Shown here piece by piece: positions 27,536 through 45,426 of a stretch of DNA of 45,672 nt. The stretch spans positions 1 to 45,672 of the forward strand of contig JAKAHE010000001.1 of NCBI GenBank assembly GCA_021815285.1, in the 5' to 3' direction. Origin of the DNA: Nitrospirota bacterium (GTDB lineage Bacteria; Nitrospirota; JACRHJ01). The notes beneath the pieces are model-generated. The model did no database searches and was not told the origin of the DNA. It saw only the letters and a list, made by a program, of their open reading frames with translations. The position numbers and the translations under genes were made by a program. Each line of letters begins with the position of its first letter. Within the stretch, counting starts at the first letter, position 1.

Positions 27536-27552
27536 GTTAATTTGTAAATTCG

Positions 27553-27582: not shown

Positions 27583-27616
27583 TCAAAAGAAAGCGAAACT
27601 GTACGGCTTTTCTTTG

Positions 27617-28372: not shown

Positions 28373-28461
28373 CTTGACAAACCTGGGGGCCTAACCTATT
28401 ATTCTGGTTAGTTTCGGGGCGGTTTTTGCCGCCCCGCGCCCCATTTTCAAGGCCCCCGGGA

Positions 28462-29436: not shown

Positions 29437-29437
29437 C

Positions 29438-31954: not shown

Positions 31955-31980
31955 AAGAAGGGGCTATCGCCCCTTCTTTT
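31953..31980. terminator. Bidirectional intrinsic terminator between convergent genes
   Basis: aaaagaaggggc-tatc-gccccttctttt forms a 12-bp stem with A/T runs on both sides. It overlaps the last codons of the DUF2304 gene. Confidence 0.6.
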
Positions 31981-32320: not shown

Positions 32321-33038
32321 CCCGACCCTCCAGTTCCGGCTTCTTCCGGACAAGCCATATAAAAAGCACCATCATTACCTTGACCATATAGTAGACGGAT
32401 TTTATCGGCGTAATGGAGGAATGGCCTCCGCCCCTCGCCCTCATCTTCACAGGCTCCTCGGAAATCCTGAAGCCGGCAAGATGTGCCAGGAGCAGGCTCT
32501 CCACCTCCGGGTAATCGTCGGGATATTCCTGTGCGAAAAGCCTTATAGTCTTCCTGTTGCAGGCCCTGAAGCCTGAGGTCGGATCAGTGAGCCTGTGCCC
32601 GGTCATGACGGATAGAACACGGGCAAAGAGGGAGATACCTATCCTGCGCATTCTCGTTGATTTGAATCCATCGGAGTCGGACCGGCCAATAAACCTCGAT
32701 CCGACTACTATCTCGGCATTCCCGGCCATTACCGGCCCGATTATCACAGCTAATTCGGAAGGGTCGTGCTGGCCATCGCCGTCCACCTGCACCGCGATGT
32801 CATAACCTCCCTGCTCCGCATACCTGTAACCGGCCTGGACCGCCGCCCCGATCCCCATATTGAACGGGAGGTTTACGACAGCGGCGCCGGACGCCGCCGC
32901 GACGGAGGCGGTGGCATCTACCGAGCCGTCGCTTATGACCACGACGTCCGCCTCCGGCATCGCCGAATGAATCTCCGCCACGACCTTCCCTACCGTGGCC
33001 TCTTCGTTATATGCCGGGATTATCGCAATGAGCCTCAT
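32313..33038 (-). CDS. Glycosyltransferase family 2 (small, soluble type)
   Basis: IAIIPAYNEEATVGKVV...VISDGSVDAT...VQVDGDGQHDP. Confidence 0.85.
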   Translation of the reverse strand: MRLIAIIPAYNEEATVGKVVAEIHSAMPEADVVVISDGSVDATASVAAASGAAVVNLPFNMGIGAAVQAGYRYAEQGGYDIAVQVDGDGQHDPSELAVIIGPVMAGNAEIVVGSRFIGRSDSDGFKSTRMRRIGISLFARVLSVMTGHRLTDPTSGFRACNRKTIRLFAQEYPDDYPEVESLLLAHLAGFRISEEPVKMRARGGGHSSITPIKSVYYMVKVMMVLFIWLVRKKPELEGRDA

Positions 33039-34021
33039 TTCATACCCATTATGAAGAAGCGGATGAAACCTTTAAGCATCCCGATACCCCTCGCATAACT
33101 CCTCAAGAAACCGACAGGCGCGAAAACGAGGTATGAAACTTCTTTCTTTCTCAGCGCTATCTTGACAGCCCAGGGCAGTTGAATGGCGAACAGCACCGCC
33201 GCAGATAAAACAAACGGGGGCGCGTAAAACGGAAGCGCCGCAATAGACAGCAGATTCAAAAGCGAAAGCGGCGGCTCTATTATGTCCTTCTTTTTTGTAT
33301 AGTCGTCCCCGCCGCGCATACCCGGGTGCGCCTTGTAAAGCTTTATACGCCAATACCCGTGCGTGTATTGCTCTCTCAGGTATTTCTTAAGTGAAACGGT
33401 ATGGTAATGCCCCACAAGCGCGCCGGGCGCAAAGGCTATCTTGTAGCCCAGCTTCTGCACCCTGTAGCTAAGGTCGTTGTCCTCGCCCGATGCCCTCCTG
33501 TAGGATTCATCGAAACCGCCGGTCTTCTCCAGGACTTCCCTTCTAATAGCCACGTTATACGAGCCGAAGAACCGGATTAACCGCCCGTAGCTCTCATGCC
33601 GCTCCTTTATCTCCTCGTGAATCAGCCTCGGCAGAATCCTGTCCCCGTTGGCTATGTCGTATGAGCCTGTCACCGCTCCGATTTCTCCCCCGTCCGGCGA
33701 ATCAAAACCAGCCAGAAGAGCCTCCGCCCATCCTGGGCGAGGCACGCAGTCGGAATCCGTAAATATAACAACGTCGGAGGATGATGCCTTCCAGCCGGTA
33801 TTCCTGGCGGCGGCAGGGCCGGCATTTTTCTGATAGATATATTTAACCGATGGATACTGCTTTACAACTTCAGCCGTCCCGTCAGCGGAGCCGTCGTCGA
33901 CTACTATAATACTGTCCGCCGACATACCATCGGCGAGCAGGGCGGAGATGGTCCGGCCTATGGTATTCTCCGCGTTATAGGCCGGTACGACGACAGCAAG
34001 CTGATTCAAATCCGGCGTCAT
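33035..34021 (-). CDS. Glycosyltransferase family 2 with C-terminal membrane helices
   Basis: VVVPAYNAENTI, DDGSADGT, FTDSDC, GEDNDLSYR, plus two C-terminal hydrophobic helices. Confidence 0.85.
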   Translation of the reverse strand: MTPDLNQLAVVVPAYNAENTIGRTISALLADGMSADSIIVVDDGSADGTAEVVKQYPSVKYIYQKNAGPAAARNTGWKASSSDVVIFTDSDCVPRPGWAEALLAGFDSPDGGEIGAVTGSYDIANGDRILPRLIHEEIKERHESYGRLIRFFGSYNVAIRREVLEKTGGFDESYRRASGEDNDLSYRVQKLGYKIAFAPGALVGHYHTVSLKKYLREQYTHGYWRIKLYKAHPGMRGGDDYTKKKDIIEPPLSLLNLLSIAALPFYAPPFVLSAAVLFAIQLPWAVKIALRKKEVSYLVFAPVGFLRSYARGIGMLKGFIRFFIMGMK

Positions 34022-34028: not shown

Positions 34029-34514
34029 TTATTCCCGCGCTCTATTATCTATAAAATTCCCAATGGCTGTTATTATCCCGGCTCCCTTTTCCTGAGGTCT
34101 GAACTTTCCTTTCTGGCCCAGGAGCCTTTTGAGCGCTATCTCCAACTCCGCCGCGTCATAAATTACCTCCACTCCTGGCCTGCCAAGGACCGCCTCCGCT
34201 ATCTCCATCTGATGGTCGTTGAAATGCTCACCCAGCTTCTCGCGCCTCGGCATTATTATAATGGGTGTACCTGAATGGAGCGCGCCTATAATGGTGCCTA
34301 TTCCGGCATGAGAGATTATAACATCGGCTTTTGCCTGCATGGCTTCCGCCTCAGGAAACGTAAGAAAATCCTTGTAAGCGGCATTTACAGGGGTGAACCC
34401 GGAGCTCCCGGTCTGAATGAATATATCCTCATTGATAACGGCCGCAAGAGAGTCTACGGCTTTTATCAACCTGTCGAAACCGAGCGGCATCTTCCCGACC
34501 GTCGCGTATATCAT
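34029..34514 (-). CDS. Alg13-like glycosyltransferase catalytic subunit (Glyco_tran_28_C; PssE/EpsF-like)
   Basis: Trimmed to the ATG at 34514 (ATGA overlap). MIYATVGKMPLGFDRLI...VIISHAGIGTI...PRREKLGEHFNDHQ. Confidence 0.8.
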   Translation of the reverse strand: MIYATVGKMPLGFDRLIKAVDSLAAVINEDIFIQTGSSGFTPVNAAYKDFLTFPEAEAMQAKADVIISHAGIGTIIGALHSGTPIIIMPRREKLGEHFNDHQMEIAEAVLGRPGVEVIYDAAELEIALKRLLGQKGKFRPQEKGAGIITAIGNFIDNRARE

Positions 34515-34957
34515 ATTAATCCGCCCTCGTACCGGGCCTTTTTGCCGTAGAATTTTAAAAGGCCCTCCCACTGCACCAGGAAGAGGTCTGCCGCCCAATA
34601 TATAAGCCTGCCGGTAAGAGAAGGACTTATCACCTGCGCGCTGCACTCCACGTAAACGGTAGGCAGGCGGAACAGGAACTTCCCGATGTAAAATACGGGC
34701 AGGGCTACTTCTGCACCCGTTGAAACAAGCGCGGCAGGCCTTTCCTTAAGAAGTATCCTCAGCTCCTGCCACGCGGTAACTAATACCTTTAGCGGGTTCT
34801 TCACGAAACTCGCAACGTAGTAAACGCAGTCTTCCCCTCCTACGGGAAGCGCGCTGTCAGTTATAAAAAAGAGCTCGTGGCGGCCTTTCAGTCCGTCGGC
34901 GATTACCTTCGCCTCTGCCAGATGCCCGCCGTGCGAGCAGACGAAGCAGATTTTCAT
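34511..34957 (-). CDS. Alg14-like glycosyltransferase partner subunit (PssD/EpsE-like)
   Basis: MKICFVCSHGGHLAEA...LVSTGAEVALP...VECSAQV is the typical Alg14/PssD pattern. Confidence 0.8.
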   Translation of the reverse strand: MKICFVCSHGGHLAEAKVIADGLKGRHELFFITDSALPVGGEDCVYYVASFVKNPLKVLVTAWQELRILLKERPAALVSTGAEVALPVFYIGKFLFRLPTVYVECSAQVISPSLTGRLIYWAADLFLVQWEGLLKFYGKKARYEGGLI

Positions 34958-35913
34958 TGTTTGCCTTTTCGCATCACGAATATCCTGGAGCTCGCAAGGC
35001 CGCTGTATTTTTCAACAAATGCCACCGGTAGGGCAGCTAACATTGCAACCGCGCCGGCAAAACGCGTCGCCATGGCGACAACAGGTTTTTTACCATAAGC
35101 ATCCGAAGCAACCGAGGCCGGGACAAGCGTTTCCGCCATGATATGGGCAAGGTTCGCAACGCTCACAGGGTTTGAAACCACTTCTTTAAAACCGGAGCGC
35201 GCGCCAAGAGCCTCCATACCGTTTGTGCTTGGTATGGTAATATGCCGCGGCATCTCTGCAATCTCTATCCATCGTCTACCGAAAACCCTCGGCATAAGAC
35301 CGTCCATCACCGGGACGAATATATATGCTGCGCCTCCGGGTTTAAGAAGCTTCAAGGTTCGCTCCGCAGTCTCGGCAGGGTCAGGAAGATGTTCGAACAC
35401 GTTAAAAAAAGCTATCGCGTCAAACGAGTGCTCATCAAAATCAAGTCCCGTCAAGGTACCGAGGCGCGCCTTAATTCCCATCGAATTGGCATATTCCACA
35501 TCGGATTGTGAAGTTTCTATCCCTTCGGCGTCATAGCCGTAATTAATGAATTCCTTTATCCGTCTGCCGCTCCCACAGCCGACGTCAAGGACTCTGCCTG
35601 AATATAAGCCCGTATGTTTACGAAATTCACGAATATGCTTTCTGTACATCAGGTCGTAAAAAAACGCCATCTCGGCTTTCGTCCAGAGCCTGAAAAACCT
35701 ACCCTGTCTTCTGGCATCCTTGACAATATAGTGATCCGGATATAGCCCATCCAGTTCGGCCAGAGAAGGCGTCTCCGACAGCATGGCGCTGCCGCACGAG
35801 TCGCAGGAAATAACGTCAAAATTCCTTTTATACAGACCGAGCCTGTCTTTCATCCCGCTGTAAAAAATGCTGAATGCGCCGCCGCCGCAGAAATAACATC
35901 TTTCAGGCTTCAT
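34954..35913 (-). CDS. Class I SAM-dependent methyltransferase with an N-terminal zinc ribbon
   Basis: CYFCGGG...CDSCGS zinc ribbon; SAM motif I VLDVGCGSGRR; post-I acidic residue; FFNVFEHLPDP. Confidence 0.85.
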   Translation of the reverse strand: MKPERCYFCGGGAFSIFYSGMKDRLGLYKRNFDVISCDSCGSAMLSETPSLAELDGLYPDHYIVKDARRQGRFFRLWTKAEMAFFYDLMYRKHIREFRKHTGLYSGRVLDVGCGSGRRIKEFINYGYDAEGIETSQSDVEYANSMGIKARLGTLTGLDFDEHSFDAIAFFNVFEHLPDPAETAERTLKLLKPGGAAYIFVPVMDGLMPRVFGRRWIEIAEMPRHITIPSTNGMEALGARSGFKEVVSNPVSVANLAHIMAETLVPASVASDAYGKKPVVAMATRFAGAVAMLAALPVAFVEKYSGLASSRIFVMRKGKQ

Positions 35914-36891
35914 CTATTCCTGCTCCTTCGCCACGCGCCAGACAGGGTTTGTCGCCGCGTAAGCAAGAAACATAAAGCTCGAAAAGATCACCCGTACAGC
36001 CACTATCAACGCGCCCACTTCCCCCTCGTAGCCGAAATGTTCGAGCACAAGCGCAAAGCTCAGGTCCGCCACGCCGAGCCCGCCGGGTATGGGAGCAAGC
36101 GCCGCCGCCAGAGAATAGACCATAATCGAGGCGACCGTTACCAGCAGTCCAGTCTGCACATTCATCATCTTGAAGAGAGCAATCCAGCAGGCCATGTCAA
36201 ACGCCCAGCACATAAACGTCAGGACGAGGTTGTAAAGAGAAAACCGGACAGTGAAGTAGCTCCCGGTAGCCTTGTAGAACTCGTCCAGCCCGCCCGTCAG
36301 CCCCTGGAGAAAGCGCCTGAGCGCGGCGGCTATTTTCCGTCCTCCGATAATTACAAGCAGTCCGTCCGCCCATCCGTAGACTTTCTCGCCCGCCTCCCGC
36401 GCCACAAGAAAAAAGATGAATACGCCGAGCGCAGCGAATATGCCTGCCAGCACAAATCCGGAGCGCATACCCCAGAACGTCCCGTAGAAGAGAAAGAAGA
36501 CGGCTGTGAAGACTATAAGGCTCTGAAAGGTTTCTATCACCCTGTCGTAAAGTATTATGGATAAGAGGTTTCCCTGCTTATTGTCGCGGAGGACTGCCGG
36601 GACTACCTCACCGCTCCTCATGGGCGAGACCATCCCCCAGAACTTGCTGGAGAAATAGGCCGATCTGAGTTCGGAGAAAGTTAATGGTGAGTGTACCCTG
36701 TCCCGCATCAAGGTCCACTTGTATATCCGCAGATAAGATGACAGCAAGTAAAATACACCGGTTACGAGAATCCAGCCGGGCCGGACGCGGGAGAGGGCCT
36801 GCCATGTTGCCCCTATGCCGATAGAATAGAGAACCCCAACAAATATCAGCGCGCCTGCTGCGGGCAAGACATATCTTTTGAAAACCTTCAT
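35914..36891 (-). CDS. Flippase-like polytopic membrane protein (LPG_synthase_TM / UPF0104 family)
   Basis: 325 aa with about 8 hydrophobic helices. N-terminal pattern with YLRIYKWTLM resembles the lysylphosphatidylglycerol-synthase transmembrane region family. Confidence 0.6.
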   Translation of the reverse strand: MKVFKRYVLPAAGALIFVGVLYSIGIGATWQALSRVRPGWILVTGVFYLLSSYLRIYKWTLMRDRVHSPLTFSELRSAYFSSKFWGMVSPMRSGEVVPAVLRDNKQGNLLSIILYDRVIETFQSLIVFTAVFFLFYGTFWGMRSGFVLAGIFAALGVFIFFLVAREAGEKVYGWADGLLVIIGGRKIAAALRRFLQGLTGGLDEFYKATGSYFTVRFSLYNLVLTFMCWAFDMACWIALFKMMNVQTGLLVTVASIMVYSLAAALAPIPGGLGVADLSFALVLEHFGYEGEVGALIVAVRVIFSSFMFLAYAATNPVWRVAKEQE

Positions 36892-36894
36892 GCG

Positions 36895-38319
36895 CTAAAA
36901 CCGGAACACGAGATAATAAAAGCGTTTCACGTAATGCGGGATGTTTTTTGCGAACAGGCCTGCGACCGCAATGGGATTTTTCAGGAAAAAACGCGCGATC
37001 AGCCTGTACCGCATTCCGCGCAGAAGACTCCTGCCCTTTCCGAAGACCTTCCTAAATTCCTCCATAGAAACATCCGTGAGGGTCGGGTGTTCCACGTTCT
37101 GATGGGACATCAGGTCTTCCCCTTCCCAGTCGGCATCATCCCTTACCTTCCCCCTCCGCTTGGCCACTTCCCAGAACTCCGTCTTCGGGAAAGGAGTGGC
37201 CACGAACGACCACAGGTAGTCCGCCTTTTCTTTTTTGGCGAAACGGATGAAATCCAGGGTCTTCTCCATGTCCTCGATGGTTTCGCCGGGGCTGCCGAAC
37301 ATCAAGCTCCCGTAGACGACGAGTCCGTGCCGCTTGCATGTCCTGATAGCGTCCTTGTTTTTCTGGACGCTGGTGGAGCCGACCTTAAGGTACTTAAGCA
37401 TTCTTTCCGAGCCGCTTTCGAACCCGAAATTCAGGTTCCTTACGTTCAGGCTTTTCAGGATTTCGCACATCTCGTCGTCTATGTGGTTCGACCGCGCGTT
37501 GCATGTAAAGGTAGCCTTGCCGAGCAGGCCTTCTTGCCCGAGCTTTGCGTGCAGTTCCTTCAGCCTGTTTTTATTGACGATAAACATGTCATCCAGGATG
37601 TTTATTATTTTTATGCCCAGGTCATGCACGAGGTAGCGGATGTTCCCGACGACGTAATCCACTGAATGATTCCGGTGACGGTCCCAGAAAGTCGAGGTTG
37701 AGCAGAACACGCACCTGTACGGACAGCCTCTGGCTGTCATCAATGGCGCGCATGGCCCTATCATCCTTAACCCCACCTCTTCCCTCGGCAACAGATAATT
37801 GGGATTTATATATTTAAAATCCGGCCAGGGTATATCGTCAAGGTCCTTAACCAACGGCCTGGGAGGCGTTAGCATAACCTTCCCGTCATTACCGAAATAA
37901 GCCACTCCCTTGATATCTTTCAGAGTCTCTTCCTGTAGCGGCCCTTTTTTTATAAAATGCTCGACTATCTCACGCAGAGTCTCCTCGCCCTCTCCCAGCA
38001 CGGCAAAATCAAAAACGTCTTTCAGGGATTCCGGCATGGTCGATATATGAACACCGCCAATGATTATCTGGCCTGTGTAATAATTCCTTATCTCTCTTGC
38101 AGTCTTAATCGCGGTTCCATACCGAAGCGACATCGCGGAAATGCCTATCAGGTCTGGATTCTCCTCCTTCAGGCGCTCGTGAATGTCCTCGAATACATTA
38201 TCTACGATTACCGTATCCTTTATTCCAGACTTCTTTTCAAGGTAAGTCGCCAGATATGCCAGACCTATCGGTGGAGTCCTCGAAAGTCCGTCTTCCAACG
38301 AGACAAGCGCTAATTTCAT
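36895..38319 (-). CDS. B12-binding-domain radical SAM enzyme
   Basis: N-terminal Rossmann-like cobalamin-domain pattern (LVSLEDG...PPIGLAYLATYL...IGISAMS...IIGGVH). Radical SAM motif ARGCPYRCVFCS. Confidence 0.8.
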   Translation of the reverse strand: MKLALVSLEDGLSRTPPIGLAYLATYLEKKSGIKDTVIVDNVFEDIHERLKEENPDLIGISAMSLRYGTAIKTAREIRNYYTGQIIIGGVHISTMPESLKDVFDFAVLGEGEETLREIVEHFIKKGPLQEETLKDIKGVAYFGNDGKVMLTPPRPLVKDLDDIPWPDFKYINPNYLLPREEVGLRMIGPCAPLMTARGCPYRCVFCSTSTFWDRHRNHSVDYVVGNIRYLVHDLGIKIINILDDMFIVNKNRLKELHAKLGQEGLLGKATFTCNARSNHIDDEMCEILKSLNVRNLNFGFESGSERMLKYLKVGSTSVQKNKDAIRTCKRHGLVVYGSLMFGSPGETIEDMEKTLDFIRFAKKEKADYLWSFVATPFPKTEFWEVAKRRGKVRDDADWEGEDLMSHQNVEHPTLTDVSMEEFRKVFGKGRSLLRGMRYRLIARFFLKNPIAVAGLFAKNIPHYVKRFYYLVFRF

Positions 38320-39746
38320 TTTATTTCATTCTTGCCGAAATAATTAAGGAATGCCTTCAACCCGTATAATTTTCTCTTTAAGTCCGCCATGCTCCTGATG
38401 TTGAGGAGCATCCGCGCCATCTGTCTGGGCCTTAAGTAAAACCCCTTCAGCCCTTCGTCGATAAGCTGGTCAATCCGTTCCTTTGTTAGCTGTGGATATG
38501 AAAGTAGCGTGACCTGCTCGTAATCCTTGCTTACCCATTCCCGCCAGTCGTCCGCGACGACATAGCCATGCTCTTTAGCCCAGGCGTAAAGCTCCGTTCC
38601 CGGATATGTGCAGATGCCCGAGACCTGGATGGTGTCCAGCGGGAGCGAGCGGGCGAACCTTAGCGTCTCACGGGCGGTGTCCTCCGTCTCGCCGGGCGCG
38701 CCTACCATAAAGCATCCGTGTATGACGAAACCGAGCCTTGCCGCCTCCTCAGCGAATTTCCTTGACTGCTCGACTGTTACACCTTTCTTCACGGAATCCA
38801 GCCCCGTCTGCGTCCCGAATTCGAAACCGACCATCAGCATCCTGCACCCTGCCTTCTTCAGAAGAGGCAGGAGCGCAAGGTCGATGTCAACGCGGGAGTT
38901 GCACGACCAGGATATTTTAAGGCCGCGCCTCAATATCTCATCGCAGACCCCATGGGCATGTTGGCGGGAGGCGGCGAAGGTATCTGTCTCGAACATTATT
39001 TCGTTAAGCTGCGGGAAGAGCTTCACGTCGTATTCCATCTCGTCCACGACCTGTACCGGGTCCCGGTAGCGGAGCTTCCTCCCGTACATTAGCTGGGTAT
39101 CCCTGCAGAACGTGCACTTCCCGAAACAGCCGCGCCCGGAGATAAGCGTCAGGAACGGAAACTTTTTCCCGGCATCGTAATACCATTCAGGCTTGATATG
39201 ATGCCATGCCGGGAAAGGAAGCTCTTTCACGTCCAGCGGCTCCCGGTCGGGGTTATGCCGGACGGTTTCACCGTCCAGCCAGTCTATTCCGGCCACGTCG
39301 GACAGAGGCGTTCCCGACGCGATGTCGCGGATTGTGTAATCATACTCTCCGCGCGCCACGGCGTCTACCGCGCCTTTATCTATCATTAGCGTATCTGCCG
39401 GCAGGGCGCTGACATGCGGGCCCACCAGCGCTGTCATGGCCCCGGTGAGGCCCTTTATTGTTTTGGCGTAATCGATGTCGTTGTATATGGAAGGAGTCGT
39501 GGTATGCAGTACCGCAAGCTCCGGGCGAAACTGGCGGGCTATGTCTTCCACGTCGGTTTTTTTCATGTTCAGCGCAGCCCCATCCACAAACTTCACCTGA
39601 TGGCCCGCCTTTTCCAGCACGGCTGTAAGTATCAGCAGCCAGTCAGGGTGTCTTTGCACGCGGCCCCTTGATTTCGCCGCCCACCTTGCGCTCCTGCAGA
39701 AGTCGTCTACGTATGGAGGATTAAGAACAATTATCTTCAAAATCAT
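38316..39746 (-). CDS. B12-binding-domain radical SAM enzyme; the N-terminus resembles HpnJ-type hopanoid-associated enzymes (from memory, unverified)
   Basis: IIVLNPPYVDDFCRSARWAAKSRG...HPDWLL...LHTTTPS; radical SAM motif SGRGCFGKCTFCRD. 4-nt overlap with the next gene. Confidence 0.8.
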   Translation of the reverse strand: MILKIIVLNPPYVDDFCRSARWAAKSRGRVQRHPDWLLILTAVLEKAGHQVKFVDGAALNMKKTDVEDIARQFRPELAVLHTTTPSIYNDIDYAKTIKGLTGAMTALVGPHVSALPADTLMIDKGAVDAVARGEYDYTIRDIASGTPLSDVAGIDWLDGETVRHNPDREPLDVKELPFPAWHHIKPEWYYDAGKKFPFLTLISGRGCFGKCTFCRDTQLMYGRKLRYRDPVQVVDEMEYDVKLFPQLNEIMFETDTFAASRQHAHGVCDEILRRGLKISWSCNSRVDIDLALLPLLKKAGCRMLMVGFEFGTQTGLDSVKKGVTVEQSRKFAEEAARLGFVIHGCFMVGAPGETEDTARETLRFARSLPLDTIQVSGICTYPGTELYAWAKEHGYVVADDWREWVSKDYEQVTLLSYPQLTKERIDQLIDEGLKGFYLRPRQMARMLLNIRSMADLKRKLYGLKAFLNYFGKNEIK

Positions 39747-39765: not shown

Positions 39766-41241
39766 TCAGTAATAATACCTCAGACCGATGTACCATGTAG
39801 CAAACGAGAGCGCCACGGCCATTACGGCCCCGACAAATAGAGGACCTCGGAACACCTTGCAAGCAGTGGAATCAAACGCGTCTATTCCCAAATGACTCAC
39901 CGCCGCCAGCGCCAACGGCGCAATCGGCGTGAAATACCTGCCCTGTAGCCCGATTATGGTATCTGAACCAACCGGGTTAACAAGATACATGGATGTGGCA
40001 ACACCGACCGCAGTGGCCAGAGATGTGAGAAACATAATGGCCCGGCCCCTCGGAAGAATATGCGGCAAACCCTGCGAAAAAAGGACTTGCGCCAACAAAA
40101 AGAATCCCAGGAAATAGTAGAAAAAGGCCGGGAAGACGAGGTCGAGCCAGCCGAGCAGCCCCAGGAACTGCCGGATCAGCCCGCGCCCCTCTCCCTGCAA
40201 TCTGTAGTGAAATATACCGTTGTACAGAGCCGAGAGGTAGTCAAGCGGGTGGGTCGCGATGAAGCCGACCTGGCCAATCGGATTGCCGATAAGCGAAGGC
40301 CCGGTATCATGCCTGTATGCGGTAGTAATGGCTATGGCGGGGATATTCCATGCCGCGGAAACAGCCAATGTAAAAAGCAGGGCCGATGCGACAAACAGGT
40401 AGCGGGAACTACGTTTCCTGAACCGCTCGGCAGGCACGGCCAACACCAGAAGCGCAAGCACTAAATATGGCTGTTTTAGCAAGGCAACCACGGCGAGAAG
40501 CCCGAATACCGCGGCAATCCTGCCCCTGGTTAACGGCTGACCCGTGTCCGCCAATGAAAGCCTGAGCATATATGCCGTAAATAAAAACACTACGCCGGTC
40601 GTGATTGCGTCCGCGCCGACCGATACGGACAGGGCCACGCTCATGGGCAATAGCCCCACTATCATGAAAAGGTTTTTGCCGACCGGTGTAGTTTTCACGG
40701 CCAGAAAGACCAGCAGGGCGTAAGCCAGCATCACCGATATCCGGGCAAGGTAATAACATATGAGCGGACCTGCGCCGAACGCCCTGCCGGCTATGATTCC
40801 AACCGCCTGCGGCAGATAGGGGATAGGCGAATACATTTCCGCGCTGGTCTTCGCGAAAACCCTCTGCGAGTAATCTGGCTTCATTTTGAAAGACCTGCCT
40901 ACGAACTCCCGGAAAAGGCTGAAATCGTACTTCCGGTACGGATTTCTCCGTATCATGCGAGCGCCCATAGCATCTGGAAGCTCGACCACATCGACGGGCA
41001 TGTACCCCCCAGCGGTAAGCTTACCATCCGGGCCTTTCACGGTTTTGATAAATAGACTGCCGTCGGATAACGACCATGCTCGGATGAAATGCGACTCTTC
41101 GTCCGGAAGCTGGAAAGGCGGTATCAGAAACACCCACAACAGGCCAAAGAGAAGCGCCAGCGCCAGGAATACGTGCTCTTCCCTTATCCTGCTCGCTAAC
41201 CCTGCGGCCTGCACACCGCTTTTTTGTTTATTACTTGCCAT
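39766..41241 (-). CDS. DUF2142-family polytopic membrane protein (GT-C-like putative glycosyltransferase)
   Basis: 491 aa, more than 10 hydrophobic helices. N-terminal loop motif PPFQLPDEESHFIRAWSLSDG is characteristic of DUF2142. Confidence 0.7.
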   Translation of the reverse strand: MASNKQKSGVQAAGLASRIREEHVFLALALLFGLLWVFLIPPFQLPDEESHFIRAWSLSDGSLFIKTVKGPDGKLTAGGYMPVDVVELPDAMGARMIRRNPYRKYDFSLFREFVGRSFKMKPDYSQRVFAKTSAEMYSPIPYLPQAVGIIAGRAFGAGPLICYYLARISVMLAYALLVFLAVKTTPVGKNLFMIVGLLPMSVALSVSVGADAITTGVVFLFTAYMLRLSLADTGQPLTRGRIAAVFGLLAVVALLKQPYLVLALLVLAVPAERFRKRSSRYLFVASALLFTLAVSAAWNIPAIAITTAYRHDTGPSLIGNPIGQVGFIATHPLDYLSALYNGIFHYRLQGEGRGLIRQFLGLLGWLDLVFPAFFYYFLGFFLLAQVLFSQGLPHILPRGRAIMFLTSLATAVGVATSMYLVNPVGSDTIIGLQGRYFTPIAPLALAAVSHLGIDAFDSTACKVFRGPLFVGAVMAVALSFATWYIGLRYYY

Positions 41242-42185: not shown

Positions 42186-42917
42186 TCACAATATTCCCAA
42201 TATCGATTTTATCTTCAGGAGCCAGACCACGACGAGCGCCTCGAATATTATCCCCTTGTTCATCTTGGAGATGCCGGCCCTCCTGTCGGAGAACACGATT
42301 GGGATTTCCTTCAGTTTCAACCCCTTCTTCTGGCAGAGGAAGTTCATCTCTATCTGGAACGAATAGCCGTCCGACTGAATCCGGGAGAGGTCGAGCTTCA
42401 AAAGCGCCTCCCGCCTGAAGCACTTGTAGCCGCCGGTCGTGTCGTGGAGCTTGAGGCCCGTTATCGTCCTCGCGTATACGCTTGCGAAGTATGACAGCAT
42501 AAGTCTTTTCAGAGGCCAGTTCAGAATCCGTATGCCGTCTACGTAGCGCGAGCCTATGACGACGTCTGCCTCCTTCGCCGCCTCGAGGAACTTCGGTATC
42601 TCCGCGGGGTCGTGAGAGAAGTCCGCGTCCATCTCGAATATGTAGTCGTAACCCTTGTCGATGGCGTAACGGAATCCCTCGATGTATGCCGAACCGAGCC
42701 CCATCTTGCCCGCCCTGTGCAGAACGTGGACGCGCGGGTTGGCCTGGGATATTCTGTCGGCCTCCGCCCCGGTGCCGTCCGGGGAGTTGTCGTCTACAAT
42801 CAGCGCCTCGGTAATATCCGAGACGCCGAGAACCGCGTCGATGATCTTCCCGACGTTGCTTATCTCGTTGTATGTCGGTATGACGACAAGGGCTCTCAAA
42901 CCGTTACCTCCGCGCAA
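42186..42917 (-). CDS. GT2 polyprenol-phosphate mannose/hexose synthase-like (DPM1/Ppm1-like), soluble
   Basis: VVIPTYNEISNVGKII, VDDNSPDGTG, EMDADFSHDP, GYKCFRREAL. Confidence 0.85.
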   Translation of the reverse strand: MRGGNGLRALVVIPTYNEISNVGKIIDAVLGVSDITEALIVDDNSPDGTGAEADRISQANPRVHVLHRAGKMGLGSAYIEGFRYAIDKGYDYIFEMDADFSHDPAEIPKFLEAAKEADVVIGSRYVDGIRILNWPLKRLMLSYFASVYARTITGLKLHDTTGGYKCFRREALLKLDLSRIQSDGYSFQIEMNFLCQKKGLKLKEIPIVFSDRRAGISKMNKGIIFEALVVVWLLKIKSILGIL

Positions 42918-45426
42918 GCCTGAACCGCCAGGCGAATACCGACGCTATGAACGCCAGCGCCATGAGGGAAAGGGCCACGCCTATGTGATACGTCCCCGGA
43001 GAGAATTTAAGCGCCAGCTTGTGATTTCCCTTCGGCATCGGTATCCCGCGGAGGACGTAGTCCGTGCGGTATATACGCGTCCTGACGCCGTCCACATAAG
43101 CCTTCCAGCCCGGATACCAGACCTCGGAGGCCACGAGGAACGAATTAGCCGGTGCGGACACATTTATGTCCATCTCGTCCGGGGTGTATTTCGTAACCCT
43201 GACGCTCTGGCCTGCGAGGTCTGCGGACGGGTTTATATAAAAGTCAAGCTTCCCGTTTCCGGAGACCACCGCGGCGTCGAACGGCGGGAAGCGCGGGTCG
43301 GATATTATGCCGAGCGCCTGTTCCGTGTCGTCCACCTTTATTAGCCTGTCCACGAGCCATGCGCGGGGCAGGTTGATTTTTCTTTTATAGAAATAGCAGT
43401 CCGAGTTGTCCAGGAGCTCGTACCTGTCCATCATTTCCTTCCTTGCCGCCGGGTCCGGTATCGCGCTGAAGTCGTATTCCGGCTGCTTCGGAAGAAGCAG
43501 ATAGCGCGCGTTCAGGAGATCGAGTATCGAGTTGTTCAGGGTTATGCTGTCCACCGTGTTCATGTAGTATTCGAGCGGCGCGGCATGATAGCCCGTCAGA
43601 CTTTCGATTCCGCGGATAAGAAGAAAGTTGTTGAGATTCGGCGCAAACACCCTGAAGGGTTTGTCCTTGTCCGCTTCGAGCGCCTTTATCTGCGGCGTCT
43701 GCTTGTAGAATACGCTGTCCAGCTCCGAGACCGGGACGGTTTTTATCATCGACCAGTCCACGGGCCAGAGGTCGGCGATTATAATCACGGAGACTATCAG
43801 GGTAAGATATTTCCTGTTCAGCCAGCCCTTCCTGTATATCGCCAGGAGCGCAAGCGAGACCGCCAGCACAAACGAGAAGACGAACATGTTCTTGATAAAA
43901 TAAGAAAGCCTCTCCGGCGCGTCGTCGAACTCTCCCCAGAGCATATCCCGGACCCACTGATGGTCAAGCCACCGGTTCACCGCTCCGAATATGTCCGAAT
44001 TCCAGTAAAGCGCCGTCCCGAGGACAAAGACGAGCACGGCGGCGCCCGCGGTTATGAAATAGAAAAGAGGGTCTCTCCCGGATCTGTGCGCGGCCTTCGC
44101 CTTGCTCTTTGTCTTGCCATCCAAGGCTGTCCTGGCCTTGTAATCCAGGAGATACTGCATCCCGTGCGCCGCGAGGACGCTCCCGCAGATGGGCGAGAGT
44201 ATCATTATCGCGTAAGGTATGCGGAAGATGGAGAATCCGGGGACGTATTTGTATATGTAGTAGTAAAACGGGTTGAACCCGCCCAGGGCGAGGAAGCCGG
44301 TGAGCACACCCATCCCGAGGAAAAACCACGTGCAGCGGCTCCGCCTGAACAATGCGCCGATACGACCCAGGACGACGCCCAGGACGCCGAAATAGTCCAG
44401 GGAGAGCTTAAGCCCCATCCTTCCGCGATAGAATATCCTGTCCGTAGTCGTCCCGAGGAGCCTTGCCAGCCATGGAGCAGTGGGCTCTATGGTAGGCACA
44501 GTCGGCCCGTAGTCCTTGCCCCAGCCGAACGGGTCGTGCATTATGGTATAGAGCATGTCCTCGGGCGGCATGGAAAAGGACGTGGCGAACTGGTATGAGG
44601 ACGCAGATGTCATCGTCCCGCCCTGGCCGCGCTCCGTGAACTTCTTATACTGAAACGCGGGGATGAGCACCGCCGCATAGAGAAGCGTCCCAAGCCCGAA
44701 GGCGAATACGAAACCGCCAATACCCTTAAGCGCCCACTTCCAGCCCCTGCTTCTCGAATCTGCGGCCAGCCTCATGACGAGGAACAGGACAAGCGTTATA
44801 CCGCAGTAAAACATTATCTGGATGTGCCCGCCGTAGAACATAAGCCCGACGAAAAGGCCCATCAAGGCGATGTTGAACAGGAACTCGCCGTCCAGCGCCC
44901 GGTCGAGAAACAGTAGCGCCAGCGGCAGCCAGGTCATGGTGTATATCTTCCCGCCGTGGCCGGGATATACGAGCGTAACGAGGTGCGGCGCGGACATGAA
45001 TATCAGCCCGCCGACAAACGACGCCTGCTTCGACAGTCCAATTTGCCTGAAGAACGCGAAAAGGAAGCACCCCATGAGGATGAAATGGATTATGTAGAGA
45101 TAGCCGGTTGCGAATTTCTGCGAGAAGATGAAATATATCCAGCTTCCCGGATAAAGGACATGAAAAGAGAAGCTTGCAAGGAGCGGCATCCCGGAGAATA
45201 TGTACGGGTTCCAGAGCGGCATGTAGTGATATTTGAATATGTCCTTCATCCCGATTACCTGCATCGGGTAGCTTGCCGCGATGGTATCCGTGCCGTAGGC
45301 GAAGTTCCCCGGCACGAGATATTTCCAGAAACATGCGTGCGCGATGACAATGTAAAGCAGTATGTAGACGAGGCTTGTGAAGCTTCCGTCTTTATCGTCT
45401 ATGAAATAAGACTTGATTCTCGGCAA
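42904..45426 (-). CDS. YfhO-family large polytopic membrane protein (GT-C-type glycosyltransferase)
   Basis: 840 aa. N-terminal MPLWNPYIFSGMPLLASF motif, more than 12 hydrophobic helices, a large C-terminal extracytoplasmic domain and a final transmembrane helix. Confidence 0.8.
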   Translation of the reverse strand: MPRIKSYFIDDKDGSFTSLVYILLYIVIAHACFWKYLVPGNFAYGTDTIAASYPMQVIGMKDIFKYHYMPLWNPYIFSGMPLLASFSFHVLYPGSWIYFIFSQKFATGYLYIIHFILMGCFLFAFFRQIGLSKQASFVGGLIFMSAPHLVTLVYPGHGGKIYTMTWLPLALLFLDRALDGEFLFNIALMGLFVGLMFYGGHIQIMFYCGITLVLFLVMRLAADSRSRGWKWALKGIGGFVFAFGLGTLLYAAVLIPAFQYKKFTERGQGGTMTSASSYQFATSFSMPPEDMLYTIMHDPFGWGKDYGPTVPTIEPTAPWLARLLGTTTDRIFYRGRMGLKLSLDYFGVLGVVLGRIGALFRRSRCTWFFLGMGVLTGFLALGGFNPFYYYIYKYVPGFSIFRIPYAIMILSPICGSVLAAHGMQYLLDYKARTALDGKTKSKAKAAHRSGRDPLFYFITAGAAVLVFVLGTALYWNSDIFGAVNRWLDHQWVRDMLWGEFDDAPERLSYFIKNMFVFSFVLAVSLALLAIYRKGWLNRKYLTLIVSVIIIADLWPVDWSMIKTVPVSELDSVFYKQTPQIKALEADKDKPFRVFAPNLNNFLLIRGIESLTGYHAAPLEYYMNTVDSITLNNSILDLLNARYLLLPKQPEYDFSAIPDPAARKEMMDRYELLDNSDCYFYKRKINLPRAWLVDRLIKVDDTEQALGIISDPRFPPFDAAVVSGNGKLDFYINPSADLAGQSVRVTKYTPDEMDINVSAPANSFLVASEVWYPGWKAYVDGVRTRIYRTDYVLRGIPMPKGNHKLALKFSPGTYHIGVALSLMALAFIASVFAWRFRLARR

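What the first reader, a model, noticed from the sequence alone, without database searches (positions are those of the whole stretch)
36895..39746. Two tandem, overlapping B12-binding radical SAM enzymes inside a glycosylation operon
Seen: the proteins are 476 and 474 aa. Each has an N-terminal cobalamin-domain-like region and a CX3CX2C motif (GCFGKCTFC, GCPYRCVFC). The genes overlap by 4 nt. The two are clearly different from each other and not recent duplicates. Established: class B radical SAM enzymes perform methylation of unactivated carbons, ring contractions and related rearrangements. From memory, the first protein's N-terminus (LNPP...D.F......) resembles HpnJ, which remodels a lipid-linked amino sugar in hopanoid side-chain biosynthesis downstream of a GT2 (HpnI). 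A membrane GT2 with a GEDNDLSYR motif is also present in this operon. Inference: the product probably carries a C-methylated or carbocyclic (cyclitol-like) sugar or lipid moiety. Two such steps in one sugar pathway would be unusual.
Basis: partly seen in the sequence, partly recalled or inferred. Interest (0 to 1): 0.7.

Follow-up and report, generated by a model that had tools for sequence, protein, structure and literature searches.

The report
HpnJ-like radical enzymes in glycan operon
Two overlapping radical-SAM genes lie inside a 13-gene operon for a membrane-anchored sugar polymer; one belongs to a highly conserved, uncharacterised sister family of the hopanoid enzyme HpnJ, found across many uncultivated bacteria and archaea, which probably remodels a lipid-linked sugar.

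Summary
There are two minus-strand genes: rSAM-A (38316-39746, 476 aa, CFGKCTFC) and rSAM-B (36895-38319, 474 aa, CPYRCVFC). Each has a B12-binding-type domain and a Radical_SAM domain. They share an ATGA overlap and are 26% identical.

rSAM-A aligns with HpnJ over its full length but is not HpnJ. It scores 361 bits on TIGR03471 against a cut-off of 577.6, and it is 32% identical to authentic HpnJ. It sits in a separate tree clade, and no shc, hpnH or hpnK gene is in the window.

Its own family is very tightly conserved, at 57-70% identity from Elusimicrobiota and Nitrospirota to Asgard and DPANN archaea. It occurs in at least 299 species genomes. In its closest subgroup it is linked to a GT2_328-type membrane glycosyltransferase (21/24 loci) and a GacI/GacJ-like polyprenyl-P-HexNAc synthase (20/24). 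Natural rSAM::GT2 and rSAM::methyltransferase fusions also exist.

rSAM-B is a lineage-specific accessory enzyme. Elsewhere other class-B rSAM subfamilies take its place, with up to five rSAMs per cluster.

The most likely role is radical tailoring of a lipid-anchored sugar before flipping and GT-C transfer. Whether the chemistry is ring contraction or C-methylation is untested. This is a new variant of a known kind, of moderate to high interest.

The parts
38316..39746 (-). rSAM-A: 476-aa class-B-type radical SAM enzyme. It belongs to a tightly conserved HpnJ-like sister family. The [4Fe-4S] motif is C207/C211/C214.
   Evidence: ORF. Pfam B12-binding at residues 33-142 and Radical_SAM at 202-365. 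TIGR03471 HpnJ scores 361.5 bits over the full length, against a cut-off of 577.6. 32% identity to authentic HpnJ. Family alignment A1 has 71% mean column identity. AF2 model has pLDDT 83, and its best PDB fold matches are AprD4, TsrM and MgmA.
36895..38319 (-). rSAM-B: 474-aa class-B-type radical SAM enzyme. It is a lineage-specific accessory partner, with [4Fe-4S] motif C199/C203/C206. It is translationally coupled to rSAM-A through an ATGA overlap.
   Evidence: ORF. Pfam B12-binding, Radical_SAM_N2 and Radical_SAM. Best curated models are BchE at 165.8 bits and HpnJ at 148.9 bits, both far below their cut-offs. Best PDB sequence match is MgmA 9ccb, E 2e-12. Only 4 relatives are >=59% identical; the rest are 41-50%. 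Relatives lie in glycan clusters L084, L085, L088, L089 and L091.
35914..36891 (-). Flippase-like polytopic membrane protein (LPG_synthase_TM family), a candidate lipid-linked-sugar translocase.
   Evidence: PF03706 scores 98.4 bits. TIGR00374 flippase-like domain scores 64.5 bits, above the 43.2 cut-off. About 8 hydrophobic segments. Kept next to rSAM-B in L084 and L091.
34954..35913 (-). Class I SAM-dependent methyltransferase (319 aa).
   Evidence: Methyltransf_23/11/25 hits. Methyltransferases recur beside rSAM-A orthologues in Brachyspira and Lawsonia, and are fused to the rSAM in P0242, P0252 and P0339.
34511..34957 (-). Alg14-like subunit (148 aa) of a two-part GT28-type glycosyltransferase.
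   Evidence: ORF. The orthologous 148-aa gene in L084 and L091 carries PF08660 Alg14.
34029..34514 (-). Alg13/PssE-like catalytic subunit (161 aa from the ATG at 34514).
   Evidence: Glyco_tran_28_C scores 53.5 bits. PssE/Cps14G scores 95.6 bits and WelK 100 bits, both below their cut-offs. The start was chosen by the ATGA overlap with Alg14 and by the 161/159-aa orthologues.
33035..34021 (-). GT2_328: membrane-anchored family-2 glycosyltransferase with the GEDNDLSYR motif. It is the most constant partner of rSAM-A.
   Evidence: Pfam GT2 models, including Glyco_transf_21 at 25.4 bits against a 21.7 cut-off. Best curated model is MftF at 148.8 bits, below its cut-off; HpnI scores only 26.9 bits. 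A homologue is present in 31/81 loci, and in 21/24 close, well-flanked loci. It is 36% identical (E 3e-48) to the GT2 half of the natural rSAM::GT2 fusion P0272.
32313..33038 (-). GT2_241: small GacI/PpgS-like polyprenyl-phosphate sugar (HexNAc) synthase.
   Evidence: PF00535. PpgS scores 108.7, AglJ 94 and dolichyl-P hexose transferase 74 bits, all below their cut-offs. Small GT2 homologues occur in 20/24 close loci.
31964..32353 (-). DUF2304 small membrane protein (GacJ/Rv3632-like activator of the adjacent GT2).
   Evidence: PF10066 scores 95 bits. GacJ and Rv3632 stimulate GacI and PpgS respectively (bioRxiv 10.1101/180810). The same GT2-DUF2304 pair lies directly upstream of rSAM-A in L003, L010, L011, L012 and L081.
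39766..41241 (-). DUF2142 polytopic membrane protein (GT-C-type glycosyltransferase or polymerase candidate).
   Evidence: PF09913 scores 189 bits. About 10 hydrophobic segments. DUF2142 proteins are taken as GT-C-like WpsI/WpsJ (PMC12599335). A DUF2142 gene is also present in the Lawsonia plasmid cluster.
41244..42182 (-). GT2_312: ArnC/PgfS-like polyprenyl-phosphate glycosyltransferase with two C-terminal TM segments.
   Evidence: PF00535 scores 108 bits. ArnC-type PRK10714 scores 186 bits and PgfS 140 bits, both below their cut-offs. TM segments.
42186..42917 (-). GT2_243: small Dpm1/AglJ-like GT2.
   Evidence: PF00535 scores 108 bits and AglJ 75 bits.
42904..45426 (-). YfhO-like large polytopic membrane protein (GT-C candidate), the first gene of the operon.
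   Evidence: PF09586 YfhO C-terminal match at 35 bits, and PgfM1 at 38 bits. About 11 hydrophobic segments.

Best explanation
The two genes encode cytoplasmic radical-SAM tailoring enzymes. They sit in a 13-gene operon that builds, decorates and exports a membrane-anchored glycan or glycolipid.

**Proposed pathway (all steps inferred)**
1. GT2_241 plus DUF2304, a GacI/GacJ- or PpgS/Rv3632-like pair, loads a HexNAc onto polyprenyl phosphate at the inner face of the membrane.
2. The membrane-anchored GT2_328 and the Alg14/Alg13-like pair add sugars to a lipid-bound acceptor.
3. rSAM-A uses the cluster on C207/C211/C214 to cleave SAM. The resulting 5'-deoxyadenosyl radical abstracts a hydrogen from the lipid-anchored sugar. 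I commit to HpnJ/Cds-type chemistry as the single most likely outcome. Under the published Cds/HpnJ proposal the C5 radical opens the pyranose and C1-C5 re-closes to a cyclopentitol. This is a mass-neutral isomerisation that turns an acetal link into an ether.
4. rSAM-B, a lineage-specific accessory class-B enzyme, most likely C-methylates an unactivated carbon. MTase319 adds an O- or N-methyl group.
5. The LPG_synthase_TM-type protein flips the product. The GT-C-type DUF2142 and YfhO-like proteins, fed by the ArnC/GtrB-like GT2_312 and GT2_243, complete or transfer the glycan outside the membrane.

**Shown versus inferred**
- Shown: the gene structures, domains, family placement, co-localisation statistics and fusions.
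- Inferred: substrate identity, order of steps, cobalamin use and reaction type.

**Sub-probabilities**
- Acts on a lipid- or membrane-anchored sugar: about 0.6-0.65.
- Given that, ring contraction or rearrangement about 0.4, C-methylation about 0.4, other chemistry about 0.2.
For: **Architecture and cluster motif.**

**HpnJ is the nearest curated family by a wide margin.**
- rSAM-A scores 361.5 bits on HpnJ, against 122 bits for BchE and 98 bits or less for every other curated model in the list, the known methylases included.
- The alignment to authentic HpnJ is end to end: 32% identity, E 1e-80.
- Fourteen positions are invariant in both family A and the HpnJ clade but rare in other class-B paralogues. 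Examples are R21, P85, W280, R302, H343 and Y381.

**The canonical hpn locus has the same logic.** It runs GT2 (hpnI) - rSAM (hpnJ) - hpnK - LPG_synthase-type membrane protein.

**Linkage to glycosyltransferases.**
- GT2_328 homologues are present in 21/24 close loci, small GacI-like GT2 in 20/24, and DUF2304 in 10/24.
- The same module occurs in Elusimicrobia and in Altiarchaeota.
- Rosetta-stone fusions exist. P0272 joins an HpnJ-like rSAM to a GT2_328-type GT2 (36% identity, E 3e-48). P0242, P0252 and P0339 join the rSAM to a class I methyltransferase.

**Published function of the partner types.**
- GacI/GacJ make GlcNAc-P-undecaprenol, which a GT-C enzyme uses.
- DUF2142 proteins are GT-C-like.

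**One transcription unit.** Gene gaps are -41 to +19 nt.

**Fold.** The best fold match is AprD4, a radical SAM enzyme that acts on an aminoglycoside sugar.

**Strong constraint.** rSAM-A has a median 65% identity, against about 44% for the GT2 partners in the same loci.
Against: - No member of family A, and not even HpnJ itself, has been reconstituted in vitro. HpnJ's function rests on a knock-out.
- At 32% identity, reaction type is not safely transferable.
- Published similarity networks place the methylases Fom3 and MoeK5 close to HpnJ.
- Most characterised class-B enzymes are methyltransferases.
- The operon has no HpnK-like deacetylase.
- A carbocycle attached to polyprenyl phosphate could not serve as a GT-C donor. 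Ring contraction would therefore have to occur on a residue that stays on the final product.
- In 45 more distant loci (Omnitrophota, Planctomycetota, some Desulfobacterota) and on an Asgard contig, the orthologue is not next to glycosyltransferases. It sits beside housekeeping genes and a ferredoxin.
- The Brachyspira and Lawsonia clusters use GT2s that are only generically related to GT2_328.
- Cobalamin binding is unproven.
Confidence: 0.45

Rival explanations
1. rSAM-A is a cobalamin-dependent C-methyltransferase, like GenK, MoeK5 or Fom3. It would add a methyl group to an unactivated carbon of the lipid-linked sugar, and rSAM-B would add a second one. The cluster would then make a heavily C- and O-methylated glycan.
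For: - Both proteins carry PF02310 above threshold together with Radical_SAM.
- Most characterised class-B enzymes are methylases, and Fom3 and MoeK5 co-cluster with HpnJ in published networks.
- These clusters are rich in methyltransferases: Brachyspira has 3, Lawsonia has 5, and rSAM::MTase fusions exist.
- Up to five class-B rSAMs per cluster suggests iterative decoration.
Against: - Every other curated model in the list, the known methylases included (ladderane rSAM 98, HpnR 87, PhpK 67, MJ_0865 74 bits), scores far lower than HpnJ at 361 bits.
- rSAM-A shares HpnJ-specific invariant residues that the other class-B paralogues lack.
- The extreme conservation and the constant presence of rSAM-A, against variable accessory rSAMs, point to a signature step rather than one decoration among many.
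Confidence: 0.3
2. rSAM-A is a cobalamin-independent radical enzyme of the AprD4 type. Its Rossmann-like N-domain would bind no B12. It would carry out dehydration/deoxygenation, epimerisation or oxidation of a sugar.
For: - AprD4 is the best PDB match by sequence (E 3.8e-17).
- AprD4 is also the best match by fold (TM 0.73-0.76, E 6e-23).
- AprD4 acts on an amino-sugar, and AprD4 and ArsL sit inside B12-rSAM networks without binding cobalamin.
Against: - The AprD4 curated model scores only 72 bits against a cut-off of 500.
- No AprD3-like reductase partner is present in the operon.
- TsrM, MgmA, OxsB, CysS and TokK, all true cobalamin enzymes, follow closely in the fold search.
Confidence: 0.1
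3. rSAM-A's true substrate is not a glycan. It could be a membrane lipid chain, a polyprenol or a cofactor. Its linkage to glycosyltransferases in some lineages would then be secondary.
For: - In 45 of 80 species loci and on an Asgard contig, the orthologue lies away from glycosyltransferases, next to aconitase/leuCD, heme O synthase and a ferredoxin.
- A polyprenyl synthase lies 2.5 kb beyond the operon, and this synteny is conserved in L091.
- Curated lipid rSAM models (the ladderane-type TIGR04072 and HpnR) give weak hits.
Against: - GT2_328 linkage holds in 21/24 close loci, across bacteria and Altiarchaeota.
- A covalent rSAM::GT2 fusion exists.
- The Omnitrophota synteny is phylum-internal, so it may reflect vertical inheritance and says little about function.
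Confidence: 0.1
4. rSAM-A is genuine HpnJ, making bacteriohopanetetrol cyclitol ether in a hopanoid producer.
For: HpnJ is the top curated model, and one public record names a 64%-identical relative (P0116) 'HpnJ'.
Against: - rSAM-A scores 361.5 bits and P0116 scores 321.6 bits, against a cut-off of 577.6.
- Authentic HpnJ is only 32% identical and forms a separate clade.
- The window holds no shc, hpnH, hpnI or hpnK.
- Family A occurs in DPANN and Asgard archaea, Omnitrophota and Brachyspira.
- HpnJ at the TIGRFAM level is reported only in shc+hpnH genomes.
Confidence: 0.02

Closest known systems
HpnJ (TIGR03471; hopanoid side-chain radical SAM enzyme, Burkholderia/Mycetohabitans)
   Same: - Same length and three-part architecture.
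- End-to-end alignment at 32% identity, and HpnJ is the best curated model.
- Fourteen shared signature residues.
- Encoded beside a GT2 and an LPG_synthase_TM-type membrane protein.
- Thought to act on a lipid-anchored amino sugar.
   Different: - rSAM-A is below the equivalog cut-off and in a separate clade.
- Its partners are not orthologous: GT2_328 is not HpnI, no HpnK is present, and the flippase-like protein is unlike the HpnL-type protein.
- The hosts are mostly groups not known to make hopanoids, including archaea.
- Family A has its own invariant residues: V30-Q31-R32-H33, R215, D240, C268, C301 and C345.
Calditol synthase Cds (Saci_1489, Sulfolobus acidocaldarius)
   Same: A radical SAM enzyme proposed to contract a lipid-linked hexose into a cyclopentitol ether head group. 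That is the chemistry I favour for rSAM-A.
   Different: The sequence relationship was not tested here, because no Cds sequence was available. Cds homologues are reported mainly from acidic environments, whereas family A comes mostly from groundwater, sediment and digester MAGs.
AprD4 (PDB 6fd2; radical SAM 1,2-diol dehydratase of apramycin biosynthesis)
   Same: The best solved-structure match by sequence and by fold. It acts on an amino-sugar.
   Different: Only 20% identity. The curated model scores 72 bits against a cut-off of 500. AprD4 binds no cobalamin and works with a reductase partner that is absent here.
GacI/GacJ/GacL and PpgS/Rv3632 three-component glycosylation systems
   Same: A small GT2 with an adjacent DUF2304 protein, plus GT-C-type membrane transferases and a flippase, all in one operon. 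The published function is HexNAc-P-polyprenol synthesis and extracytoplasmic transfer.
   Different: The known systems contain no radical SAM enzymes. GT2_241 is below the PpgS cut-off, at 108.7 against 370 bits. The flippase here is LPG_synthase_TM-type rather than Wzx- or GtrA-type.
Sugar-modifying class-B methylases (GenK, MoeK5, Fms7) and the computationally defined glycan-cluster family TIGR04295
   Same: Class-B architecture acting in sugar pathways. TIGR04295 gives weak hits to both proteins, at 77 and 59 bits.
   Different: All are far below cut-off. Those enzymes belong to antibiotic pathways or to a different gene cassette. None shows the cross-domain conservation of family A.

Membership tests
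HpnJ (TIGR03471 equivalog) | Whole-protein score at or above the curated cut-off of 577.6 bits | tested here: not met
   rSAM-A scores 361.5 bits and rSAM-B scores 148.9 bits. Family-A relatives score 322-352 bits. The next-nearest representatives score 267-450 bits.
HpnJ (TIGR03471 equivalog) | Full-length collinear homology to authentic HpnJ | tested here: met
   Residues 3-474 of rSAM-A align to residues 1-472 of Mycetohabitans HpnJ, with 32% identity and E 1e-80. The HMM match covers positions 2-468 of 472.
HpnJ (TIGR03471 equivalog) | Phylogenetic placement inside the clade of authentic HpnJ | tested here: not met
   In an NJ tree of 89 sequences, family A is a tight separate clade. Authentic HpnJ groups with P0305, P0268 and P0318 elsewhere in the HpnJ-like radiation. 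The tree is distance-based and has no support values.
HpnJ (TIGR03471 equivalog) | Genomic association with hpnI, hpnK and shc/hpnH | tested here: not met
   None of these genes is in the 45.7-kb window. GT2_328 against HpnI gives E 2e-4, generic similarity only. The canonical locus is shown. The rest of the genome could not be examined.
HpnJ (TIGR03471 equivalog) | [quoted passage not shown] | not testable with these tools
   This is a biochemical property. Even for HpnJ it is known only from a knock-out.
Class B (cobalamin-dependent) radical SAM enzymes | CX3CX2C motif within a Radical_SAM (PF04055) domain | tested here: met
   rSAM-A has C207/C211/C214 and scores 62.2 bits. rSAM-B has C199/C203/C206 and scores 91.1 bits.
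Class B (cobalamin-dependent) radical SAM enzymes | N-terminal B12-binding-type Rossmann domain | tested here: met
   PF02310 scores 40.2 bits for rSAM-A and 70 bits for rSAM-B, against a cut-off of 32.1. The rSAM-A model matches TsrM, MgmA, OxsB, CysS and TokK at TM 0.6-0.73.
Class B (cobalamin-dependent) radical SAM enzymes | Actually binds and uses cobalamin | not testable with these tools
   The best fold match, AprD4, has the same domain but binds no cobalamin. No cobalamin riboswitch or cbi/btu genes are in the window.
GacI/GacJ- or PpgS/Rv3632-type polyprenyl-P-HexNAc synthase with GT-C transferase | Small GT2 immediately followed by a DUF2304 membrane protein | tested here: met
   GT2_241 (32313-33038) overlaps DUF2304 (31964-32353), which scores 95 bits on PF10066.
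GacI/GacJ- or PpgS/Rv3632-type polyprenyl-P-HexNAc synthase with GT-C transferase | Score above the curated PpgS cut-off (370 bits) | tested here: not met
   108.7 bits. GT2_241 is PpgS-like, not an equivalog, so sugar specificity is unknown.
GacI/GacJ- or PpgS/Rv3632-type polyprenyl-P-HexNAc synthase with GT-C transferase | Polytopic GT-C-type transferase and a flippase in the same unit | tested here: met
   DUF2142 scores 189 bits, with a YfhO-like protein and an LPG_synthase_TM flippase-like protein also present (TIGR00374 64.5 bits, above the 43.2 cut-off). The GT-C fold itself was not modelled here.
AprD4-type radical SAM diol dehydratase (NF033070) | Score at or above 500 bits | tested here: not met
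   rSAM-A scores 72.3 bits and rSAM-B scores 54.5 bits.
BchE anaerobic Mg-protoporphyrin cyclase (TIGR02026) | Score at or above 481 bits | tested here: not met
   rSAM-A scores 122 bits and rSAM-B scores 165.8 bits. Some public annotations of relatives as 'BchE' are therefore over-calls.

The most novel reading that the evidence does not exclude
Family A is the universal carbocycle-forming enzyme of a previously unrecognised class of glycoconjugates. In this reading, lipid- or glycan-bound cyclopentitol ('cyclitol ether') residues are made by an HpnJ/Cds-type ring contraction. Such residues would be widespread in anaerobic bacteria (Elusimicrobiota, Nitrospirota, Omnitrophota, Planctomycetota, Acidobacteriota, Brachyspira) and in DPANN, Altiarchaeota and Asgard archaea. 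The variable accessory class-B rSAMs, up to five per cluster, would C-methylate these residues into glycosidase- and acid-resistant surface structures.
Probability: 0.2. Interest if true: 0.8.

Novelty: new variant of a known kind. Interest (0 to 1): 0.58.

Why it matters
- **No HpnJ-like enzyme has been reconstituted.** HpnJ's proposed sugar ring contraction is one of the unexplained non-methylating reactions of the more than 220,000-member B12-radical-SAM class.
- **Family A offers many orthologues to try.** It is a soluble, very strongly conserved sister family with hundreds of natural orthologues. One is in a cultured spirochaete, and a more distant relative is on a Lawsonia intracellularis plasmid. 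This gives a direct route to that chemistry.
- **It points to unusual surface sugars.** Surface-glycan clusters of many uncultivated anaerobes and archaea carry one to five class-B radical SAM enzymes. Their cell-surface sugars may therefore be C-methylated or carbocyclic in ways no characterised glycan pathway predicts. That would bear on phage and host recognition, glycan stability and lipid or sugar biomarkers.
- **It corrects public annotations.** Family members are currently labelled 'BchE', 'YgiQ' or 'HpnJ' in public records.

Tried and rejected
- **Genuine HpnJ or a hopanoid role: rejected.** The grounds are score, tree placement, context and host range.
- **Orthology of partners to HpnL and HpnI: rejected.** The flippase-like protein shows no significant pairwise similarity to the HpnL-type protein. 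GT2_328 shows only generic GT2 similarity to HpnI.
- **A fixed A+B functional pair: rejected.** rSAM-B orthologues are absent from all 80 species loci, where other subfamilies (sub0-sub4) take the place. The pair is kept only in L084 and L091.
- **GT2_328-type partners in Brachyspira and Lawsonia: rejected.** Their GT2s match only in the N-terminal nucleotide-binding region.
- **Exact look-up of the window's own contig: failed.** No gene with the rSAM-A product is on record. The cluster look-up gave no names or organism, so the source organism is unidentified. The best named relatives are Nitrospirota.
- **Literature searches: nothing on this family.**
  - 'radical SAM' with DUF2304 found nothing, and the cobalamin rSAM + polyprenyl + glycosyltransferase combination found nothing.
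  - The B12-binding + O-antigen search returned one paper, not opened; by title and abstract start it concerns viruses of methane-cycling archaea.
  - The calditol synthase paper PMC6305003 is not held.
- **Cobalamin supply: no evidence in the window.** There is no riboswitch and no cbi/btu genes.
- **Promoter and terminator scan: uninformative.** Counts were near shuffle expectation.
- **Structure model: no residue-level geometry.** It gives only fold class, so I could not test whether family-specific C268, C301 and C345 form an auxiliary cluster.

Full report
**1. The observation**

The window holds two minus-strand ORFs. rSAM-A runs 38316-39746 and is 476 aa. rSAM-B runs 36895-38319 and is 474 aa. 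Bases 38316-38319 read ATGA on the coding strand, so the stop of rSAM-A overlaps the start of rSAM-B.

rSAM-A carries CFGKCTFC at residues 207-214. rSAM-B carries CPYRCVFC at residues 199-206. Both match Pfam B12-binding (PF02310) and Radical_SAM (PF04055) above the gathering cut-offs. They are 26% identical, so they are not recent duplicates.

**2. The operon**

Thirteen genes on the minus strand, from 45426 to 31964, are packed with gaps of -41 to +19 nt. In order they are:
- a YfhO-like polytopic protein;
- a small Dpm1/AglJ-like GT2 (243 aa);
- an ArnC/PgfS-like GT2 (312 aa);
- a DUF2142 polytopic protein;
- rSAM-A;
- rSAM-B;
- an LPG_synthase_TM flippase-like protein;
- a class I SAM methyltransferase;
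- an Alg14-like and an Alg13/PssE-like pair;
- the membrane-anchored GT2_328, which carries GEDNDLSYR;
- a PpgS/GacI-like GT2 (241 aa);
- a DUF2304 protein.

Published work shows how some of these part types function. A GT2 plus DUF2304 pair (GacI/GacJ, or PpgS/Rv3632) makes HexNAc-P-polyprenol. A GT-C enzyme then uses it outside the membrane. DUF2142 proteins are treated as GT-C-like.

The rest of the window holds housekeeping genes. These include dnaX, SRP RNA, tRNA-Ser, tpiA, POR, cytochromes and a polyprenyl synthase. There are no shc, hpn or cobalamin genes and no cobalamin riboswitch.

**3. What rSAM-A is**

The best curated model by far is HpnJ (TIGR03471). It scores 361.5 bits over the full length, against an equivalog cut-off of 577.6. 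BchE follows at 122 bits, and no other curated model in the list, known methylases included, exceeds 98 bits.

A tblastn against annotated plasmids and chromids recovered authentic hpnJ genes. They are 31-33% identical to rSAM-A. The Mycetohabitans locus reads hpnI-hpnJ-hpnK followed by an LPG-synthase-domain protein. Its HpnJ aligns with rSAM-A end to end at 32% identity, E 1e-80.

The window's flippase-like protein is not similar to the HpnL-type protein. GT2_328 is not similar to HpnI beyond family level.

In the exhaustive search of 50%-identity representatives, rSAM-A's own family collapses to about five representatives at 49% identity or more. Below that lies a continuum at 30-45%, with 4171 representatives at E<=1e-30. 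None of ten near representatives reaches the HpnJ cut-off.

A distance tree places family A as a tight clade. It is separate from the authentic HpnJ clade, and both lie inside a broad HpnJ-like radiation. rSAM-B's family is far away.

A recent survey found TIGRFAM-level HpnJ only in genomes with shc and hpnH. I conclude that rSAM-A is HpnJ-like but is not HpnJ.

**4. Family A: conservation and spread**

The top 120 homologues are 62-100% identical. They carry names from Nitrospirota, Elusimicrobiota, Planctomycetota, Latescibacterota, Nitrospinota, Acidobacteriota, Bacteroidota and Deferrisomatales. Archaeal names include Promethearchaeota, Methanobacteriota and Altiarchaeota.

A scan of 185,579 species genomes used two family-specific peptides and found 299 carriers. 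The 80 loci fetched are mostly Omnitrophota, Planctomycetota, Elusimicrobiota, Nitrospirota, Acidobacteriota and Desulfobacterota MAGs. There is one cultured organism, Brachyspira catarrhinii. DPANN archaea are also represented, including a Nanoarchaeota single-cell genome.

The Asgard contig is convincingly archaeal, since its neighbours are actin, an Arf/Ras GTPase and a Hef-like helicase.

An 18-member alignment has 71% mean column identity. In shared loci rSAM-A has a median 65% identity, while GT2_328 and GT2_241 homologues are about 44%.

**5. What travels with family A**

I clustered all neighbours within 8 kb over 80 loci plus the window, without prior assumptions. I then counted by subgroup.

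Among the closest loci (L001-L035) with at least 3 kb on both sides:

| Neighbour | Loci |
|---|---|
| GT2_328 homologue | 21/24 |
| Small GacI-like GT2 | 20/24 |
| Extra class-B rSAM | 14/24 |
| DUF2304 | 10/24 |

The same module appears in two other settings:
- Elusimicrobia: PMT_2 - GT2 - DUF2304 - rSAM-A - rSAM - GT1 - GT2 - ... - MTase, inside a nucleotide-sugar cluster.
- Altiarchaeota: PMT_2 - GT2 - RGP - B12-rSAM ... epimerase - GT2 - rSAM-A.

Brachyspira has rSAM-A, then a GT2, then three methyltransferases.

A more distant HpnJ-like protein (36% identity) lies on Lawsonia intracellularis plasmid 1. Its neighbours are DUF2142, GT2, two DUF2304 genes, a second rSAM, five methyltransferases and heptose-type genes.

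Fusion proteins give independent support. P0272 joins an HpnJ-like rSAM to a GT2 that is 36% identical (E 3e-48) to GT2_328 over its full length. P0242 (54% identical to rSAM-A), P0252 and P0339 join the rSAM to a class I methyltransferase.

There is contrary evidence as well. In the 57-62% identity subgroup the gene is not in a glycan cluster. This subgroup is mainly Omnitrophota and Planctomycetota. There the gene lies beside aconitase/leuCD and heme O synthase genes, and a 92-aa ferredoxin lies downstream in 22 loci.

**6. What rSAM-B is**

Its best curated models are BchE (165.8 bits) and HpnJ (148.9 bits), both far below cut-off. Its best solved relative is the glutamine C-methylase MgmA.

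Only four relatives are 59% identical or more; the rest are 41-50%. The A-B-flippase-MTase-Alg14-Alg13-GT2 arrangement is kept in L084. In L091 an extra methyltransferase sits between rSAM-A and rSAM-B. L091 is also syntenic with the window down to the cytochrome b, AMMECR1 and polyprenyl synthase genes.

More distant rSAM-B relatives also lie in glycan clusters (L085, L088, L089), but not always (L090, L092).

Beside rSAM-A in other phyla, the accessory rSAMs fall into at least five other subfamilies. L003 has five class-B rSAMs in total. So rSAM-A is the constant element, and the second rSAM is a variable accessory.

**7. Structure**

An AlphaFold2 model of rSAM-A has mean pLDDT 83 and pTM 0.86. 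It shows an N-terminal Rossmann domain, a partial TIM barrel and a C-terminal helical domain. The invariant loop 19-32 is modelled poorly.

Foldseek ranks AprD4 first (TM 0.73-0.76). TsrM, MgmA, OxsB, CysS and TokK follow. AprD4 has this fold but binds no cobalamin. Cobalamin use by rSAM-A is therefore likely but not established.

Family A and authentic HpnJ share 14 invariant positions that are rare in other class-B paralogues. Family A also has its own invariant set, including V30-Q31-R32-H33. The alignment also shows invariant cysteines C268, C301 and C345; in the pairwise alignment with authentic HpnJ these positions are not cysteine.

**8. Most likely mechanism**

I infer that the operon assembles a lipid-anchored sugar structure at the cytoplasmic face. 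rSAM-A, rSAM-B and the methyltransferase tailor it. It is then flipped, and GT-C-type enzymes complete or transfer it.

For rSAM-A I favour an HpnJ/Cds-type radical rearrangement. The published proposal has three steps: hydrogen abstraction at C5, ring opening, and C1-C5 closure to a cyclopentitol.

I hold this only slightly above C-methylation, for three reasons:
- No HpnJ-like enzyme has been reconstituted.
- Known methylases lie near HpnJ in similarity networks.
- A carbocycle on polyprenyl phosphate could not be a GT-C donor.

rSAM-B is most simply a C-methylase.

**9. Novelty and verdict**

The parts are of known kinds: a class-B-type rSAM, and a GacI/J plus GT-C glycosylation system. The combination appears undescribed in the literature I could search. 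What seems new is the pairing of three things:
- an extremely conserved, cross-domain HpnJ sister family;
- its coupling to a specific membrane GT2 and a polyprenyl-P-sugar synthase;
- variable additional class-B rSAMs in the same clusters.

I rate it a new variant of a known kind, with interest 0.58.

Noticed in passing
L085:3287-5671; also proteins P0250, P0253, P0273, P0281: Several HpnJ-like or class-B radical SAM proteins are interrupted by an intein with a LAGLIDADG homing endonuclease. P0250, P0273 and P0281 hit both Intein_splicing and LAGLIDADG_3; P0253 hits only LAGLIDADG_3. In P0273 and P0281 the insertion lies between the B12-like domain and the rest of the radical SAM core.
   Followed up: partly
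Proteins P0298 (2331 aa), P0357, P0367, P0368, P0290: These predicted polyproteins carry 3-5 tandem class-B radical SAM modules; in P0298, P0357, P0367 and P0368 a CX3CX2C motif recurs about every 460-530 residues. They may be real multi-enzyme fusions or gene-calling artefacts.
   Followed up: no
L087 (Lawsonia intracellularis plasmid 1, NC_008012, record 7091-26521): The 27-kb plasmid of this pig pathogen is largely a glycan-tailoring cluster. It holds DUF2142, GT2s, galE, two DUF2304 genes, a SIS-domain protein, an HpnJ-like rSAM (36% identical to rSAM-A), a second rSAM, five SAM methyltransferases, a HAD-IIIA hydrolase and a GHMP kinase.
   Followed up: partly
L036-L080, e.g. L063:6050-6334: A 92-aa two-[4Fe-4S] ferredoxin lies just downstream of the rSAM-A orthologue in 22 loci, mainly Omnitrophota and Planctomycetota. 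It is a possible physiological reductant for the enzyme.
   Followed up: partly
L093:5664-10108 (Promethearchaeota contig): On an Asgard archaeal contig the rSAM-A orthologue sits between an actin gene, a BNR-repeat protein and an Arf/Ras-type GTPase. No glycosyltransferase is nearby.
   Followed up: no
window 28426-29992 (+) and L091/L092: A polyprenyl diphosphate synthase is followed by an AMMECR1 protein (AmmeMemoRadiSam system protein A). The order is conserved beside the operon in L091. In L092 AMMECR1 is preceded by a Memo/LigB protein and a MiaB-like radical SAM gene.
   Followed up: no
window 5024-7196 (-): A ThiH/HydG-like radical SAM protein with a BATS domain (5024-6406) is followed by a ThiS-like/ThiF fusion protein (6387-7196).
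   Followed up: no
window 27273-27738 (-): A bacterial small SRP RNA (27273-27372) and two tRNA-Ser genes (anticodons GGA and CGA) lie upstream of dnaX.
   Followed up: yes
window 23588-24562 (+): This 324-aa ORF has no Pfam match and lies next to the pyruvate:ferredoxin oxidoreductase genes. It overlaps shorter ORFs on both strands and may not be a real gene.
   Followed up: no
(public annotations): Public sources variously name members of both families 'anaerobic Mg-protoporphyrin IX monomethyl ester cyclase', 'YgiQ family' or 'HpnJ'. For the members scanned here, BchE and HpnJ scores fall far below the curated cut-offs and YgiQ barely registers.
   Followed up: yes
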